Source: Escherichia phage Qbeta
Direction: 5' to 3' (one strand)
Length of the DNA: 4,218 bases
Sequence record: FJ483840.1
A model generated the notes under the pieces. It searched no databases, was not told where the DNA came from, and saw nothing but the letters and a program-made list of their open reading frames with translations. Position numbers and translations under genes: made by a program. Positions within the stretch are counted from its first letter, which is position 1. Each line of letters begins with the position of its first letter. Positions 1 through 4,122 of this stretch are shown one piece after another.

Positions 1-61
1 GGGGGACCCCCCTTAGGGGGTCACCTCACACAGCAGTACTTCACTAAGTATGAGAGGACAT
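1..61 (+). promoter_or_regulatory. 5' untranslated leader of an ssRNA phage genome, with terminal G-run and a C-run/G-run hairpin
   Basis: The sequence begins GGGGGACCCCCCTTAGGGGG. The C-run (7..12) and G-run (16..20) can form a 5-bp hairpin with a UUA loop. An AGAGGA Shine-Dalgarno-like element lies at 53..58, just ahead of the AUG at 62. A terminal 5' G-run is characteristic of Qβ-type genomes. Confidence 0.75.
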
Positions 62-1324
62 ATGCCTAAATTACCACGTGGTCTGCGTTTCGGAGCCGAT
101 AATGAAATTCTTAATGATTTTCAGGAGCTCTGGTTTCCAGACCTCTTTATCGAATCTTCCGACACGCATCCGTGGTACACACTGAAAGGTCGTGTGTTGA
201 ACGCTCATCTTGATGATCGCCTACCTAATGTAGGTGGTCGCCAGGTCAGGCGTACTCCACATCGTGTTACTGTTCCGATTGCCTCTTCAGGCCTTCGTCC
301 GGTAACAACCGTTCAGTATGATCCCGCAGCACTATCGTTCTTATTGAACGCTCGTGTTGATTGGGATTTCGGTAATGGCGATAGTGCGAACCTTGTCATT
401 AATGACTTTTTGTTTCGCACTTCCGCACCTAAGGAGTTCGATTTCTCGAATTCTTTAGTTCCTCGTTATACTCAGGCCTTCTCCGCTTTTAATGCCAAGT
501 ATGGCACTATGATCGGCGAAGGGCTCGAGACTATAAAATATCTCGGGCTGTTACTGCGCAGACTGCGTGAGGGTTACCGCGCTGTTAAACGCGGCGATTT
601 ACGTGCTCTTCGCAGGGTTATCCAGTCTTACCATAATGGTAAGTGGAAGCCGACTACTGCTGGTAATCTCTGGCTTGAATTTCGTTATGGCCTTATGCCT
701 CTCTTCTATGACATCAAAGACGTCATGTTAGATTGGCAGAACCGTCATGATAAAATTCAACGCCTCCTTCGGTTTTCTGTCGGTCACGGTGAGGACTGCG
801 TTGTCGAATTCGACAACTTATATCCAGCCGTTGCTTACTTTAAACTGAAAGGTGAGATTACACTCGAACGCCGTCATCGTCATGGTATATCTTACGCTAA
901 TCGCGAAGGATATGCTGTTTTCGATAACGGTTCCCTTCGGCCTGTGTCCGATTGGAAGGAGCTTGCCACCGCATTCATCAATCCGCATGAAGTTGCTTGG
1001 GAGCTAACTCCCTACAGCTTCGTTGTTGATTGGTTCTTGAATGTCGGTGACATACTTGCTCAACAGGGTCAGCTATATCATAATATCGATATTGTAGACG
1101 GTTTTGACAGACGTGACATCCGGCTCAAATCCTTCACTATAAAAGGTGAACGAAATGGGCGGCCTGTTAACGTTTCTGCTGACCTGTCTGCTGTCGATTT
1201 ATTTTACAGCCGACTCCATACGAGCAGTCTTCCGTTCGCTACACTTGATCTCGATACTACCTTTAGTTCGTATAAACACGTCCTTGATAGTATCTTTTTA
1301 TTAACCCAACGCATTAAGCGTTGA
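62..1324 (+). CDS. A2: Maturation protein A2 (attachment protein; in Qβ also the lysis effector that inhibits MurA)
   Basis: ORF from the AUG at 62 to the TGA at 1322..1324 encodes 420 aa (MPKLPRGLRFGADNEILNDFQELWFPDLFIESSDTHPWYTLKGRV...). I recognise this as near-identical to Qβ A2. It is the first gene, as in all leviviruses. The six-frame track starts the ORF at an upstream in-frame AUG at 50 (MRGH extension); I favour 62 because the AGAGGA element at 53..58 sits immediately upstream of it. Confidence 0.93.
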   Translation: MPKLPRGLRFGADNEILNDFQELWFPDLFIESSDTHPWYTLKGRVLNAHLDDRLPNVGGRQVRRTPHRVTVPIASSGLRPVTTVQYDPAALSFLLNARVDWDFGNGDSANLVINDFLFRTSAPKEFDFSNSLVPRYTQAFSAFNAKYGTMIGEGLETIKYLGLLLRRLREGYRAVKRGDLRALRRVIQSYHNGKWKPTTAGNLWLEFRYGLMPLFYDIKDVMLDWQNRHDKIQRLLRFSVGHGEDCVVEFDNLYPAVAYFKLKGEITLERRHRHGISYANREGYAVFDNGSLRPVSDWKELATAFINPHEVAWELTPYSFVVDWFLNVGDILAQQGQLYHNIDIVDGFDRRDIRLKSFTIKGERNGRPVNVSADLSAVDLFYSRLHTSSLPFATLDLDTTFSSYKHVLDSIFLLTQRIKR

Positions 1325-1344
1325 AACTTTGGGTCAATTTGATC

Positions 1345-1746
1345 ATGGCAAAATTAGAGACTGTTACTTTAAGTAACATCGGGAAAGATGGACAACAAAC
1401 TCTGGTCCTCAACCCGCGTGGGGTAAATCCCACTAACGGTGTTGCCGCGCTTTCACAAGCGGGTGCAGTTCCTGCACTGGAGAAGCGTGTTACCGTTTCG
1501 GTATCCCAGCCTTCTCGCAATCGCAAGAACTACAAGGTCCAGGTTAAGATCCAGAACCCGACCGCTTGCACTGCAAACGGTTCTTGTGACCCATCCGTTA
1601 CTCGCCAGGCATATGCTGACGTGACTTTCTCGTTCACGCAGTATAGTACCGATGAGGAACGAGCTTTTGTTCGTACAGAGCTTATCGCTCTGCTCGCTAG
1701 TCCTCTGCTGATCGATGCTATTGATCAGCTGAATCCAGCGTATTGA
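1345..1746 (+). CDS. cp: Major coat (capsid) protein
   Basis: AUG at 1345 to the TGA at 1744..1746 encodes 133 aa (MAKLETVTLSNIGKDGQQTLVLNPRGVNPTNGVAALSQAGAVPALEKRVTVSVSQPSRNRKNYKVQVKIQNPTACTANGSCDPSVTRQAYADVTFSFTQYSTDEERAFVRTELIALLASPLLIDAIDQLNPAY). This is recognisably the Qβ coat protein, including the two Cys residues (CTANGSC) that form inter-subunit disulfides in Qβ. The track ORF starts at 1321 because it counts a TTG; the real start is the AUG at 1345. Confidence 0.96.
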   Translation: MAKLETVTLSNIGKDGQQTLVLNPRGVNPTNGVAALSQAGAVPALEKRVTVSVSQPSRNRKNYKVQVKIQNPTACTANGSCDPSVTRQAYADVTFSFTQYSTDEERAFVRTELIALLASPLLIDAIDQLNPAY

Positions 1747-2334
1747 ACACTGCTCATTGCCGGTGGTGGCTCAGGGTCAAACCCCGATTCGGTTATCCCG
1801 GATCCACCGATTGATCCGCCGCCAGGGACAGGCAAGTATACCTGTCCCTTCGCAATTTGGTCCCTAGAGGAGGTTTACGAGCCTCCTACTAGGAACCGAC
1901 CGTGGCCTATCTACAATGCTGTCGAACTCCGGCCTCGCAAGTTTGATGTTGCCCTCGAAGATCTTTTGGGCAATACAAATTGGCGCGACTGGGATTCACG
2001 GCTGAGTTATACCACGTTCCGCGGTTGCCGTGGCAATGGTTATATTGACCTCGATGCGACTTATCTTGCTACTGATCAGGCTATGCGTGATCAGAAGTAC
2101 GATATTCGCGAGGGCAAAAAACCTGGTGCTTTCGGTAACATTGAGCGATTCATTTATCTTAAGTCGATAAATGCTTATTGCTCTCTTAGCGATATTGCGG
2201 CCTATCACGCCGATGGTGTGATAGTTGGCTTTTGGCGCGATCCATCTAGTGGTGGTGCCATACCGTTTGACTTCACTAAGTTTGATAAGACTAAATGTCC
2301 TATTCAAGCCGTGATAGTCGTTCCTCGTGCTTAG
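1345..2334 (+). CDS. A1: A1 read-through protein (minor capsid protein; coat extended by about 196 aa through suppression of the coat UGA)
   Basis: The frame stays open after the coat UGA (1744..1746) from 1747 to a TAG at 2332..2334, which is followed immediately by an in-frame TAA at 2335..2337. The extension reads TLLIAGGGSGSNPDSVIPDPPIDPPPGTGKYTCPFAIWSLEEVYEPP...KCPIQAVIVVPRA, which I recognise as the Qβ A1 read-through domain. Total length is 329 aa if UGA is decoded as Trp. Confidence 0.9.
1744..1746 (+). other. Leaky UGA stop codon (programmed translational read-through site separating coat from the A1 extension)
   Basis: UGA in the context UAU-UGA-ACA-CUG, followed by about 585 nt of open in-frame sequence. 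In Qβ this UGA is misread by tRNA-Trp at a few percent frequency. Confidence 0.88.
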
Positions 2335-2348
2335 TAACTAAGGATGAA

Positions 2349-2368
2349 ATGCATGTCTAAGACAGCAT
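2349..2368 (+). promoter_or_regulatory. Coat-protein translational operator hairpin containing the replicase initiation codon
   Basis: AUGCAUGUC-UAA-GACAGCAU forms an 8-bp stem (2349..2357 paired with 2361..2368) with a bulged A at 2353 and a 3-nt UAA loop. The replicase AUG (2353..2355) lies in the 5' arm. This matches the known Qβ operator that coat-protein dimers bind to repress replicase translation. Confidence 0.88.
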
Positions 2369-4122
2369 CTTCGCATAACTCTCTTAGCGCACAATTGCGC
2401 CGAGCTGCGAACACAAGAATTGAGGTAGAAGGTAACCTCGCACTTTCCATTGCCAACGATTTACTATTGGCTTATGGTCAATCGCCATTTAACTCTGAAG
2501 CTGAGTGTATTTCACTCAGTCCGAGATTCGACGGGACCCCGGATGACTTTAGGATAAATTATCTTAAAGCCGAGGTCATGTCGAAGTATGACGATTTCAG
2601 CCTAGGTATTGATACCGAAGCTGCTGCCTGGGAAAAGTTCCTGGCAGCAGAGGCTGAATGTGCTTTAACGAACGCTCGTCTCTATAGGCCTGACTACAGT
2701 GAGGATTTCAATTTCTCACTGGGCGAGTCATGTATTCACATGGCTCGTAGAAAAATAGCCAAGTTAATAGGAGACGCTCCGTCCGTTGAGGGTATGTTGC
2801 GTCACTGCCGTTTTTCCGGTGGTGCCACAACAACGAATAACCGTTCGTACGGTCATCCGTCCTTCAAGTTTGCGCTTCCACAAGCGTGTACGCCTCGGGC
2901 TTTGAAATATGTTTTAGCTCTTAGAGCTTCTACACATTTCGATATCAGAATTTCTGATATTAGCCCTTTTAATAAAGCAGTTACTGTACCTAAGAACAGT
3001 AAAACCGATCGTTGTATTGCTATCGAGCCTGGCTGGAATATGTTTTTTCAACTAGGCATCGGTGGCATTCTACGCGATCGGTTGCGTTGCTGGGGTATCG
3101 ATCTGAATGATCAGACGATAAATCAGCGCCGCGCTCACGAAGGCTCCGTTACTAATAATTTAGCAACGGTTGATCTCTCAGCGGCAAGCGATTCTATATC
3201 TCTTGCTCTCTGTGAGCTCTTACTGCCCCCAGGCTGGTTTGAGGTCCTTATGGACCTCAGATCACCTAAAGGGCGGTTGCCTGACGGTAGTGTTGTTACC
3301 TATGAGAAGATTTCCTCTATGGGTAACGGATACACATTCGAGCTTGAGTCGCTTATCTTTGCTTCTCTTGCTCGTTCCGTTTGTGAGATACTGGACTTAG
3401 ACTCATCTGAGGTCACTGTCTACGGAGACGATATTATCTTACCGTCCTGTGCAGTCCCTGCCCTTCGGGAAGTCTTTAAGTATGTTGGTTTTACAACCAA
3501 TACTAAAAAGACTTTTTCCGAGGGGCCGTTCAGAGAGTCGTGCGGTAAGCACTACTATTCTGGCGTAGATGTTACTCCCTTCTACATACGTCACCGTATA
3601 GTGACCCCTGCCGATTTAATACTGGTTTTGAATAACCTATATCGGTGGGCCACGATTGATGGCGTATGGGATCCTAGGGCCCATCCCGTGTACCTCAAGT
3701 ATCGTAAGTTGCTGCCTAAACAGCTGCAACGTAATACTATACCTGATGGTTACGGTGATGGGGCCCTCGTCGGATCGGTCCTGATCAATCCTTTCGCGAA
3801 AAACCGCGGGTGGATCCGGTACGTACCGGTGATCACGGACCATACAAGGGACCGAGAGCGCGCTGAGTTAGGGTCGTATCTTTACGACCTCTTCTCGCGT
3901 TGTCTCCCGGAAAGTAACGATGGGTTGCCTCTAAGGGGTCCGTCGAGTTGCGATTCTGTAAATCTGTCTGCTGTCGATCAACTTATCTGTAGGAGCAATC
4001 CTACAAAGATAAGTAGATCTACTGGCAAGTTCGATATACAGTATATCGCGTGCAGTAGCCGTGTTCTGGCACCCTACGGGGTCTTCCAGGGCACGAAGGT
4101 TACATCTCTACACGAGGTGTAA
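2353..4122 (+). CDS. rep: RNA-directed RNA polymerase, replicase beta subunit (catalytic subunit)
   Basis: AUG at 2353 to the TAA at 4120..4122 encodes 589 aa (MSKTASSHNSLSAQLRRAANTRIEVEGNLALSIANDLLLAYGQ...). The canonical RdRp catalytic motif YGDD is at 3421..3432 (VTVYGDDIILPS). An AAGGA Shine-Dalgarno-like element lies at 2340..2344. I recognise the protein as the Qβ replicase. The track ORF starts at an in-frame AUG at 2344 (MKC-) that overlaps the SD; 2353 is the accepted start. Confidence 0.95.
   Translation: MSKTASSHNSLSAQLRRAANTRIEVEGNLALSIANDLLLAYGQSPFNSEAECISLSPRFDGTPDDFRINYLKAEVMSKYDDFSLGIDTEAAAWEKFLAAEAECALTNARLYRPDYSEDFNFSLGESCIHMARRKIAKLIGDAPSVEGMLRHCRFSGGATTTNNRSYGHPSFKFALPQACTPRALKYVLALRASTHFDIRISDISPFNKAVTVPKNSKTDRCIAIEPGWNMFFQLGIGGILRDRLRCWGIDLNDQTINQRRAHEGSVTNNLATVDLSAASDSISLALCELLLPPGWFEVLMDLRSPKGRLPDGSVVTYEKISSMGNGYTFELESLIFASLARSVCEILDLDSSEVTVYGDDIILPSCAVPALREVFKYVGFTTNTKKTFSEGPFRESCGKHYYSGVDVTPFYIRHRIVTPADLILVLNNLYRWATIDGVWDPRAHPVYLKYRKLLPKQLQRNTIPDGYGDGALVGSVLINPFAKNRGWIRYVPVITDHTRDRERAELGSYLYDLFSRCLPESNDGLPLRGPSSCDSVNLSAVDQLICRSNPTKISRSTGKFDIQYIACSSRVLAPYGVFQGTKVTSLHEV

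What the first reader, a model, noticed from the sequence alone, without database searches (positions are those of the whole stretch)
62..1324. No dedicated lysis gene; lysis is probably carried out by A2
Unlike MS2-type genomes, there is no small overlapping lysis ORF spanning the coat-replicase junction; that interval is occupied by the A1 read-through frame. In Qβ, the maturation protein A2 itself causes lysis by inhibiting MurA, the first committed step of peptidoglycan synthesis. The A2 here is near-identical, so the same single-protein lysis mechanism is expected.
Basis: established knowledge. Interest (0 to 1): 0.4.

Follow-up and report, generated by a model that had tools for sequence, protein, structure and literature searches.

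The report
Qβ maturation protein doubles as lysin
The window is a complete genome of an already-deposited Qβ-type RNA phage that has no separate lysis gene; its maturation protein A2, 98% identical to the Qβ protein shown to block the cell-wall enzyme MurA, almost certainly does the lysing, which is the textbook situation.

Summary

**What the window is.** It is a full Qubevirus durum (Qβ) genome. It has A2 at 62..1324, coat at 1345..1746 with a UGA stop, the A1 read-through to 2334, and replicase at 2353..4122. Its A2 and replicase match GenBank proteins ACT66729.1 and ACT66732.1 exactly.

**A2.** It is 412/420 identical to laboratory Qβ A2 (PDB 5VLZ/5VM7).
- Residues 1-120 are identical. This includes residues 30-120, reported to make most MurA contacts.
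- The 1-180 minimal lytic fragment differs only at F121S, a naturally variable site.
- The C-terminal residues needed for lysis are kept.

**No separate lysis gene.**
- No non-A1-frame ORF spans the coat-replicase interval; the longest open stretch is 54 codons.
- Several hydrophobic +1-frame ORFs exist. The best is 1155..1304, with ATG and a Shine-Dalgarno. They are what 43% T at third codon positions produces by chance.
- These ORFs vary in length between isolates and show no suppression of synonymous change.

**One nuance.** Laboratory Qβ has a published cryptic +1 lysis ORF at the replicase start. Here its landing codon is a stop (GAGGUAG instead of GAGGUUG).

Function was not tested. F121S and Y246C are not seen in the other isolates compared.

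The parts
62..1324 (+). A2 gene: maturation protein that also acts as the single-gene lysis protein (420 codons + TGA)
   Evidence: ORF list. Pfam Phage_mat-A E=7e-135. 412/420 identical to PDB 5VLZ/5VM7 A2. Exact match to ACT66729.1.
52..58 (+). Purine-rich Shine-Dalgarno-like GAGAGGA ahead of the A2 AUG at 62. It overlaps an upstream in-frame ATG at 50..52.
   Evidence: Sequence. 5' alignment with relatives.
149..421 (+). Codons for A2 residues 30-120, the part of the beta-region reported to make most MurA contacts. The protein sequence is identical to laboratory Qβ.
   Evidence: Alignments. Definition of the contact segment from PMC12856241, citing Cui et al. 2017.
62..601 (+). Codons for A2 residues 1-180, reported as the shortest fragment that lyses cells. 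The only difference from laboratory Qβ is F121S.
422..424 (+). A2 codon 121, TCC Ser (Phe in laboratory Qβ). Not seen in the other isolates compared, at a naturally variable site (F/V/S; P or A in other Qubevirus).
797..799 (+). A2 codon 246, TGC Cys (Tyr in all 12 other Qβ-type A2 proteins compared). Lies outside the 1-180 lytic fragment.
1304..1315 (+). A2 codons 415-418 (T, Q, R, I), the C-terminal stretch shown by mutagenesis to matter for lysis. T415, Q416 and R417 are kept. V418I is conservative and is the majority state in nature.
   Evidence: PMC12856241 Tables 3-4. Alignment.
1345..1746 (+). Coat gene ending in the leaky UGA at 1744..1746
   Evidence: Pfam Levi_coat E=2.3e-61. Sequence.
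1747..2334 (+). A1 read-through extension. It fills the interval where MS2-type phages carry the lysis gene L.
   Evidence: Pfam Read-through domain E=1.2e-96. Open-frame map.
2353..4122 (+). Replicase beta-subunit gene
   Evidence: Pfam RNA_replicase_B E=4.4e-216. Exact match to ACT66732.1.
2422..2428 (+). GAGGTAG, the counterpart of the GAGGUUG +1 shift site of the published cryptic Qβ lysis ORF. The landing codon at 2426..2428 is a TAG stop here, produced by a synonymous GTT>GTA change in replicase Val25.
   Evidence: Description of the cryptic gene in PMC12856241.
2429..2557 (+). Remnant of the cryptic +1 frame (42 codons + stop), cut off from the shift site by the TAG. Not hydrophobic, and no Shine-Dalgarno before its TTG at 2450.
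1155..1304 (+). Best-looking embedded sgl-like ORF: +1 frame inside A2, ATG, AGGTGA 5 nt upstream, hydrophobic N-terminus, 49 codons. Judged a by-product of A2 coding, not a gene.

Best explanation
The window is the genome of a Qβ-type (Qubevirus durum) F-specific RNA coliphage with four products: A2, coat, A1 and replicase. It has no separate lysis gene.

Lysis is caused by A2. As A2 accumulates late in infection, free or as the single copy on each virion, the outward-facing beta-region of A2 binds the closed, UDP-GlcNAc-loaded form of the host enzyme MurA. This blocks the first committed step of peptidoglycan synthesis. The cell then bursts at the septum when it next tries to divide.

Shown here: the gene layout, the identity of A2 with the structurally and genetically characterised Qβ A2, complete identity of the reported MurA-contact segment, and the lack of any embedded ORF with the signature of a gene.

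Inferred from published work on laboratory Qβ: MurA binding, MurA inhibition and lysis by this particular A2.
For: (1) The whole genome is 95.8% identical to Qβ isolates, with identical gene order. A2 and replicase are exact matches to deposited Qβ proteins ACT66729.1 and ACT66732.1 on a 4218-nt record.

(2) A2 is 412/420 identical to the A2 in PDB 5VLZ/5VM7 (MurA complex) and 5MNT.

(3) Residues 1-120 are identical to laboratory Qβ. Residues 30-120 carry most MurA contacts, and 1-180 is the minimal lytic fragment (PMC12856241 citing Cui et al. 2017).

(4) Six of the eight substitutions are shared with other natural isolates. Position 418 tolerates S, E and deletion in lysis assays, and T415, Q416 and R417 are unchanged.

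(5) No ORF bridges coat and replicase outside the A1 frame. There is no similarity to MS2 L. The small ORFs have no Pfam or PHROGs family.

(6) Sgl-like embedded ORFs are expected by chance. T is 43% at third codon positions, which becomes the middle position of +1-frame codons. Among synonymous shuffles of A2, 85% contain at least one ORF with >=25 codons, a 4-nt Shine-Dalgarno and a hydrophobic 19-mer. With a 6-nt Shine-Dalgarno plus ATG the figure is 13%.

(7) None of the candidates lies in a stretch of reduced synonymous variation. Their lengths and start codons change between isolates through changes that are synonymous in the main frame.

(8) In laboratory Qβ, A2 plasmids with tiny C-terminal changes (dR417, Q416P, V418K) do not lyse, although the embedded 1154-1246 ORF is untouched. 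The 1-180 fragment lyses without that ORF.

(9) Reviews state that A2 is the Sgl of Qβ and inhibits MurA.
Against: No experiment exists for this isolate's A2 in what I could read.

F121S sits immediately next to the reported contact segment and is a hydrophobic-to-polar change. Y246C is unique among the 13 Qβ-type A2 proteins compared. Either could change MurA affinity or A2 stability.

I could not obtain the primary structural paper or coordinates, so the contact segment is known only second-hand.

Kajitani et al. 2026 report a viable Qβ mutant (V418K) whose free A2 does not lyse, and release of particles without functional A2. So even in Qβ the sufficiency of cytosolic A2 is not the whole story.

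Functional Sgls can be short, poorly conserved and fast-evolving, so lack of conservation does not strictly exclude an embedded one.
Confidence: 0.9

Rival explanations
1. A separate small membrane protein encoded in the +1 frame inside the 3' part of A2 (1155..1304, 49 aa, MGGLLTFLLTCLLSIYF...) is the lysis protein or contributes to lysis. This would be like the embedded Sgls found in many other ssRNA phages.
For: It meets the three screening criteria used by Chamakura et al. 2020 (>=25 codons, Shine-Dalgarno, hydrophobic helix-length stretch). It has an ATG, AGGTGA 5 nt upstream, and a maximum 19-residue Kyte-Doolittle hydropathy mean (KD19) of 1.79. The ATG and a Shine-Dalgarno-like motif are present in all 12 group III genomes examined, including M11 and MX1 at about 75% nucleotide identity.
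Against: The ATG and the Shine-Dalgarno-like motif fall in A2 codons for invariant G362-E363-R364-N365-G366, so their conservation is largely forced by A2.

ORF length toggles between 30, 43 and 49 codons through changes that are synonymous in A2.

The +1 peptide is less conserved than A2 over the same bases (73% against 85%). Third-position variation is not reduced (37% against 38%).

Such ORFs arise in 13-85% of synonymous shuffles.

The ORF is absent from SP and FI. It has no family match.

In laboratory Qβ, A2 clones that keep this ORF intact but alter A2 codons 416-418 do not lyse, and A2 1-180 lyses without it.
Confidence: 0.03
2. Lysis is helped or caused by the cryptic +1-frame product at the start of the replicase gene described for laboratory Qβ. 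That product is 67 aa: 24 replicase residues fused by a +1 shift at GAGGUUG to 43 residues of the +1 frame.
For: It is published for laboratory Qβ (Nishihara et al. 2004, as described in PMC12856241). In laboratory Qβ the heptamer, the 24 + 43 = 67 arithmetic and the open frame are all present. Downstream of the shift site, the window keeps the +1 frame open for 42 codons.
Against: In the window the landing codon is TAG (GAGGTAG at 2422..2428), so a shift at that site terminates at once.

Among 10 natural Qβ-type isolates, only BR12 keeps TTG, and there the frame stops after 12 codons. BZ1 and VK are also truncated, and FrSangria has the same TAG.

Synonymous variation is not reduced.

The remaining TTG at 2450 has no Shine-Dalgarno, and the peptide is not hydrophobic.
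Confidence: 0.01
3. A2 of this isolate is weakened as a MurA inhibitor because of F121S and/or Y246C. The phage would then lyse late or poorly, or persist in a carrier-like state as reported for the original isolate Q, rather than behaving like laboratory Qβ.
For: F121S abuts the contact segment and replaces an aromatic residue with a polar one. C246 is unique among the sequences compared. The ancestor of Qβ is described as a chronic, poorly lysing phage, and modern Qβ may have gained MurA affinity by mutation.
Against: Residues 1-120 are identical to modern laboratory Qβ. Position 121 varies in plaque-forming isolates (V in FrHibiscus and FrBurgundy) and across the genus (P, A). Position 246 lies outside the 1-180 lytic fragment. 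The sequence is from a series of cultured coliphage isolates. From my own knowledge, not checked, these are obtained by plaque assay.
Confidence: 0.05

Closest known systems
Qβ A2 (maturation protein / type I single-gene lysis protein; UniProt Q8LTE2; PDB 5VLZ, 5VM7, 5MNT, 7LHD)
   Same: Same species-level genome, same gene position and length (420 aa), and 98.1% identity. Residues 1-120 and the C-terminal T415-R417 are identical.
   Different: Eight substitutions: F121S, A198T, R219K, Y246C, S374D, N389S, F404Y, V418I. Six are shared with other natural isolates. S121 and C246 are not seen in the others compared.
MS2 L (type II Sgl, 75 aa, +1 frame across the coat-replicase junction)
   Same: Both phages are F-specific Fiersviridae that lyse with one protein and no endolysin or holin.
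   Different: The window has no junction-spanning ORF, because the interval holds the A1 read-through domain. There is no similarity to L. The mechanisms differ: L does not inhibit peptidoglycan synthesis.
Cryptic +1 lysis gene at the start of the Qβ replicase gene (Nishihara et al. 2004)
   Same: Same location, and the downstream +1 frame is homologous: KVTSHFPLPTIY....
   Different: The shift and landing codon UUG is UAG in the window. The configuration of laboratory Qβ (UUG plus 43 open codons) is found in none of the 10 natural Qβ-type isolates examined.
Other 'protein antibiotic' Sgls: phiX174 E (MraY), phage M and PP7 Sgls (MurJ)
   Same: The same strategy of blocking supply of lipid II so that the cell lyses at division.
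   Different: Those are small membrane peptides encoded by dedicated embedded genes. A2 is a 48-kDa soluble structural protein with a second job, and it targets the cytoplasmic enzyme MurA.

Membership tests
Qβ-type A2 (Mat that is also the MurA-inhibiting Sgl) | Member of the ssRNA-phage maturation protein family, first gene of the genome | tested here: met
   Pfam PF03863 E=7e-135, residues 36-420. PHROG 4286 E=1.9e-142. Gene at 62..1324, ahead of coat.
Qβ-type A2 (Mat that is also the MurA-inhibiting Sgl) | Close sequence identity to the A2 for which MurA binding and lysis were demonstrated | tested here: met
   412/420 identical to PDB 5VLZ/5VM7 and to BAP18762.1. Same 90% cluster as UniProt Q8LTE2.
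Qβ-type A2 (Mat that is also the MurA-inhibiting Sgl) | MurA-contact segment of the beta-region (residues 30-120) preserved | tested here: met
   Residues 1-120 are identical to laboratory Qβ. The segment is defined second-hand from PMC12856241 citing Cui et al. 2017.
Qβ-type A2 (Mat that is also the MurA-inhibiting Sgl) | Minimal lytic fragment 1-180 preserved | tested here: inconclusive
   One difference, F121S, at a site that varies naturally (F/V/S; P, A in other Qubevirus). Its effect is unknown.
Qβ-type A2 (Mat that is also the MurA-inhibiting Sgl) | C-terminal residues required for lysis by full-length A2 (T415, Q416, R417; 418 not Lys) | tested here: met
   The window has T415-Q416-R417-I418-K419-R420. 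I418 is the majority in natural isolates.
Qβ-type A2 (Mat that is also the MurA-inhibiting Sgl) | Expression alone lyses E. coli; lysis blocked by a resistant murA allele or MurA excess; direct inhibition of MurA | not testable with these tools
   Needs wet-lab assays. Known only for laboratory Qβ.
Qβ-type A2 (Mat that is also the MurA-inhibiting Sgl) | Genome lacks any other functional lysis gene | tested here: met
   No junction ORF. Embedded candidates are within chance expectation and unconstrained. The cryptic +1 ORF is closed by TAG. Absence of function cannot be proven by sequence alone.
MS2 L-type lysis gene | ORF of about 60-75 codons in a non-coat frame overlapping the coat 3' end and the replicase 5' end | tested here: not met
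   The longest non-A1-frame open stretch between 1650 and 2460 is 54 codons (2006..2170), and it lies wholly inside A1. Nothing links 1746 to 2353.
MS2 L-type lysis gene | Sequence similarity to L / L-like Sgls | tested here: not met
   tblastn of MS2 L (sequence from memory) gives best E=3.1, on the minus strand. The small ORFs have no Pfam or PHROGs hits.
Cryptic +1 lysis gene of laboratory Qβ (Nishihara 2004) | GAGGUUG shift site after replicase codon 24, with UUG as the landing or restart codon | tested here: not met
   The window has GAGGTAG at 2422..2428, so the landing codon is a stop.
Cryptic +1 lysis gene of laboratory Qβ (Nishihara 2004) | 43-codon open +1 frame downstream of the shift site | tested here: inconclusive
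   42 homologous codons are open at 2429..2557, but they are separated from the shift site by the stop. The only internal start is TTG at 2450, with no Shine-Dalgarno.

The most novel reading that the evidence does not exclude
The +1-frame ORF inside the 3' part of A2 (1155..1304) may be a real small membrane protein. Its ATG and Shine-Dalgarno-like motif are present in every group III Qubevirus genome examined, including M11 and MX1. It encodes a 30-49 aa peptide with a hydrophobic N-terminus. It could be a second, A2-independent lysis or membrane-perturbing factor, and might explain the published release of particles when A2 is non-functional.
Probability: 0.03. Interest if true: 0.6.

Novelty: already known. 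Interest (0 to 1): 0.08.

Why it matters
It matters little beyond confirmation. A2 as the MurA-inhibiting 'protein antibiotic' of Qβ has been established since 1983-2001 and has a solved complex structure. This window is a deposited Qβ isolate whose A2 keeps the reported contact region unchanged.

Two small points may be of use to specialists.

First, natural isolates, including this one, break the cryptic +1 lysis ORF described for laboratory Qβ. This argues that the ORF is dispensable in nature.

Second, natural variation at A2 position 121 (F/V/S) and the unique Y246C are ready-made probes for how tolerant MurA binding and lysis timing are.

Tried and rejected
**Papers not held.** I tried to read the primary papers for residue-level A2-MurA contacts and for the early genetics. 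These were Cui 2017 (PMC5676892), Reed 2013 (PMC3709820), Reed 2012 (PMC4631118), Karnik and Billeter 1983 (PMC555316) and Nishihara 2004 (by DOI). None is held. The contact segment and the cryptic gene are therefore taken second-hand from Kajitani et al. 2026. Searches for 'L138Q' and 'FJ483840' found nothing.

**Family and similarity searches with no result.**
- Rfam at gathering thresholds found no family in the window.
- Pfam and PHROGs scans of eight small alternative-frame peptides gave nothing above noise.
- tblastn of MS2 L gave only noise.

**Embedded candidates examined and rejected as genes.**
- 354..458, 567..731 and 852..1007: no Shine-Dalgarno, with the start lost or the frame truncated in relatives.
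- 2030/2036..2170: no Shine-Dalgarno. The ATG is ACG in seven of the ten other Qβ-type genomes, the upstream GTG (2030) is kept in all but HL4-9, and the frame is closed in M11, MX1, SP and FI.
- 3659..3784: only a 4-nt Shine-Dalgarno, and the ATG is ACG in laboratory Qβ, BZ1, VK, BR12 and M11.
- 1439/1487..1624 and 1757..1867: not hydrophobic, and truncated in relatives.

**Not considered.** Minus-strand ORFs, because the minus strand of an ssRNA phage is not translated (established knowledge).

**Searches not run.** A2 is 98% identical to a solved structure, so they could not change the verdict.

Full report
**What the window is.** The 4218-base window is a complete genome of a Qβ-type RNA coliphage.

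- Megablast against phage records gives full-length matches at 95.8% (FJ483841, Qβ strain HL4-9) and 95.6% (AB971354, laboratory Qβ). It gives 92-93% to strains BZ1, VK and BR12, and about 75% to M11 and MX1.
- The ORF map and Pfam give the four expected products. A2 is at 62..1324 (Phage_mat-A, E=7e-135). Coat is at 1345..1746 (Levi_coat, E=2.3e-61). A read-through extension runs to 2334 (Read-through domain, E=1.2e-96). Replicase is at 2353..4122 (E=4.4e-216).
- The A2 and replicase proteins are exact matches to GenBank ACT66729.1 and ACT66732.1, on a 4218-nt record.
- These accession numbers sit directly before those of FJ483841. The window is therefore very probably the neighbouring record of the same 2009 isolate series. 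That is an inference from numbering and I could not verify it.

**Checking the observation.**

- The frame 62..1324 is 420 codons plus TGA. It stays open back to an in-frame ATG at 50.
- ATG 62 is the one preceded by the purine-rich GAGAGGA at 52..58. It is the start annotated in every close relative, and the first residue of the solved protein.
- The coat gene ends in UGA at 1744..1746, and the same frame continues to TAG at 2332..2334.
- In the other two plus-strand frames, no stop-to-stop stretch between 1650 and 2460 exceeds 54 codons. None connects the coat end with the replicase start.
- The factual part of the finding is therefore correct.

**How similar A2 is, and where it differs.**

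- Against the A2 of PDB 5VLZ/5VM7/7LHD the window's protein is 412/420 identical.
- The eight differences are F121S, A198T, R219K, Y246C, S374D, N389S, F404Y and V418I (codons).
- In an alignment of 13 Qβ-type A2 proteins, six of these states also occur in other natural isolates. D374 and I418 are the majority states in nature.
- S121 and C246 are found only in this sequence. Position 121 is itself variable: V in FrHibiscus and FrBurgundy, P in M11 and MX1, A in SP and FI.
- According to Kajitani et al. 2026, summarising Cui et al. 2017, most MurA contacts lie in A2 residues 30-120, and residues 1-180 are the shortest fragment that lyses cells.
- Residues 1-120 of the window's A2 are identical to laboratory Qβ, and F121S is the only change within 1-180.
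- The same paper shows that full-length A2 needs its C-terminus up to R417 for lysis. Position 418 tolerates Ser, Glu and deletion but not Lys. The window keeps T415, Q416 and R417 and has Ile at 418.

**Is there a hidden lysis gene?** Single-gene lysis proteins of ssRNA phages are often short, embedded and unconserved. I therefore applied the published screening criteria to all plus-strand alternative frames: at least 25 codons, a Shine-Dalgarno, and a hydrophobic helix-length stretch.

- Several hydrophobic ORFs appear, all in the +1 frame.
- The reason is compositional. T makes up 43% of third codon positions in A2 and A1, and 36-38% in replicase and coat. The third position of the main frame is the middle position of +1-frame codons, which specifies Phe, Leu, Ile, Met or Val.
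- Only one candidate combines ATG, a good Shine-Dalgarno (AGGTGA, 5 nt upstream) and a hydrophobic segment. It is 1155..1304, 49 aa, MGGLLTFLLTCLLSIYF....
- Its ATG and a Shine-Dalgarno-like motif are present in all 12 group III genomes I compared, including M11 and MX1. That is the one mildly intriguing thing in this region.

Several results argue against this ORF being a gene:

- These bases encode the invariant A2 residues G362-E363-R364-N365-G366, so the motif is largely forced by A2.
- The ORF is 30, 43 or 49 codons long in different isolates. The cause is changes that are synonymous in A2, such as CTA/CTT at Leu395.
- Its peptide is less conserved than A2 over the same bases, 73% against 85%.
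- Third-position variation inside it equals that of the rest of A2: 37% against 38% in one test, and 17 of 26 conserved-residue codons synonymously variable in another.
- It is absent from SP and FI.
- In synonymous-codon shuffles of A2, at least one ORF meeting the criteria appears in 85% of shuffles with a 4-nt Shine-Dalgarno. With a 6-nt Shine-Dalgarno plus ATG the figure is 13%.
- Experiments on laboratory Qβ point the same way. A2 clones with changes only at codons 416-418 fail to lyse although this ORF is intact, and A2 1-180 lyses without it.

The other candidates lack a Shine-Dalgarno, lose their start codon, or are truncated in relatives, and none shows reduced synonymous change. They are 354..458, 567..731, 852..1007, 2030..2170 and 3659..3784. 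None has a Pfam or PHROGs family.

Kajitani et al. 2026 cite Nishihara et al. [quoted passage not shown]

- A +1 shift after the GAG codon in GAGGUUG, restarting on UUG, gives a 67-aa lytic protein.
- In laboratory Qβ I find exactly this. GAG is replicase codon 24, TTG follows in the +1 frame, and 43 codons are open, so 24 + 43 = 67.
- In the window the heptamer is GAGGTAG at 2422..2428. A change that is synonymous in the replicase (Val25 GTT>GTA) turns the landing codon into a stop.
- Among ten natural Qβ-type isolates, two have TAG (the window and FrSangria) and six have TCG.
- Only BR12 has TTG, and there the frame stops after 12 codons, as it does in BZ1 and VK.
- Synonymous variation is normal in this region.
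- The cryptic gene is therefore a peculiarity of the laboratory strain, and it cannot operate in this genome by the described route. This strengthens 'no dedicated lysis gene'.

**Mechanism.** By homology with Qβ, A2 accumulates during infection. Its exposed beta-region binds MurA in the closed, UDP-GlcNAc-bound state. The open form clashes with the tip of the beta-region. Peptidoglycan precursor synthesis stops, and the cell lyses at the septum like a cell treated with a cell-wall antibiotic. For this isolate these steps are inferred, not shown.

**Caveats.**

- F121S and Y246C are untested.
- The contact map is second-hand.
- Recent work reports a viable Qβ mutant whose free A2 does not lyse, so details of how and in what form A2 acts are still debated.

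**Verdict.** The feature is already known, in a genome that is itself already deposited and annotated. Interest is low.

Noticed in passing
window 2422..2428 (and 2429..2557): The shift site of the published cryptic +1 lysis ORF of laboratory Qβ (GAGGUUG) reads GAGGTAG here, so the landing codon is a stop. FrSangria has the same TAG. Six other natural isolates have TCG, and BZ1, VK and BR12 truncate the frame after 12 codons. Only laboratory Qβ has UUG plus 43 open codons.
   Followed up: yes
window 1155..1304: A +1-frame ORF inside A2 with an ATG, AGGTGA 5 nt upstream and a hydrophobic N-terminus. The ATG and the Shine-Dalgarno-like motif are present in all 12 group III genomes (30, 43 or 49 codons) and absent in SP and FI. 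It is within chance expectation and shows no synonymous constraint.
   Followed up: yes
window 50..52: An in-frame ATG 12 nt upstream of the A2 start (TATGAGAGG; laboratory Qβ has TATAAGAGG) would add MRGH to A2. It is shared with HL4-9, VK, FrHibiscus and FrBurgundy. It lies inside the Shine-Dalgarno region of the real start and has no Shine-Dalgarno of its own.
   Followed up: partly
window 2647..2739 and 2827..2901: These stretches of the replicase gene have strongly reduced synonymous variation across 12 group III genomes (5 of 20 codons variable against 12.5 expected). They fall inside or at the edge of the counterpart (window 2546..2873) of the 'replicase binding region m' annotated in phage SP. 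This is consistent with RNA-structure constraint.
   Followed up: partly
window 2786..2905: A +1-frame TTG ORF of 39 codons encodes a basic, non-hydrophobic peptide, with GGAG 12 nt upstream. It is open with the same start in all 12 group III genomes (longer in M11 and MX1). SP has no start codon there and FI is truncated. It overlaps the low-synonymous-variation stretch, so its persistence may be a by-product.
   Followed up: partly
window 1402..1488: A third stretch of reduced synonymous variation lies in the 5' third of the coat gene. It starts about 40 nt downstream of the end (window 1361) of the counterpart (window 1248..1361) of the SP 'replicase binding region s'. No cause was established.
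   Followed up: no
window 1155..1304 (A2 residues about 365-414): This part of A2 is a hot spot of amino-acid change among Qβ-type isolates. First codon positions vary at 27% of sites, against 7% in the rest of the gene (Fisher p=0.001).
   Followed up: no
window 2344..2352: A second in-frame ATG sits 9 nt upstream of the annotated replicase start (ATGAAATGCATG). It is conserved in all Qβ-type genomes and lies next to or in the coat-binding operator region. Relatives annotate the downstream ATG.
   Followed up: no
protein cluster of the replicase: The 90% cluster holding the replicase also lists many bacterial EF-Ts proteins of 283 aa. This is presumably a clustering artefact, perhaps through engineered replicase-EF-Ts fusion constructs. 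It is not a property of the window.
   Followed up: no
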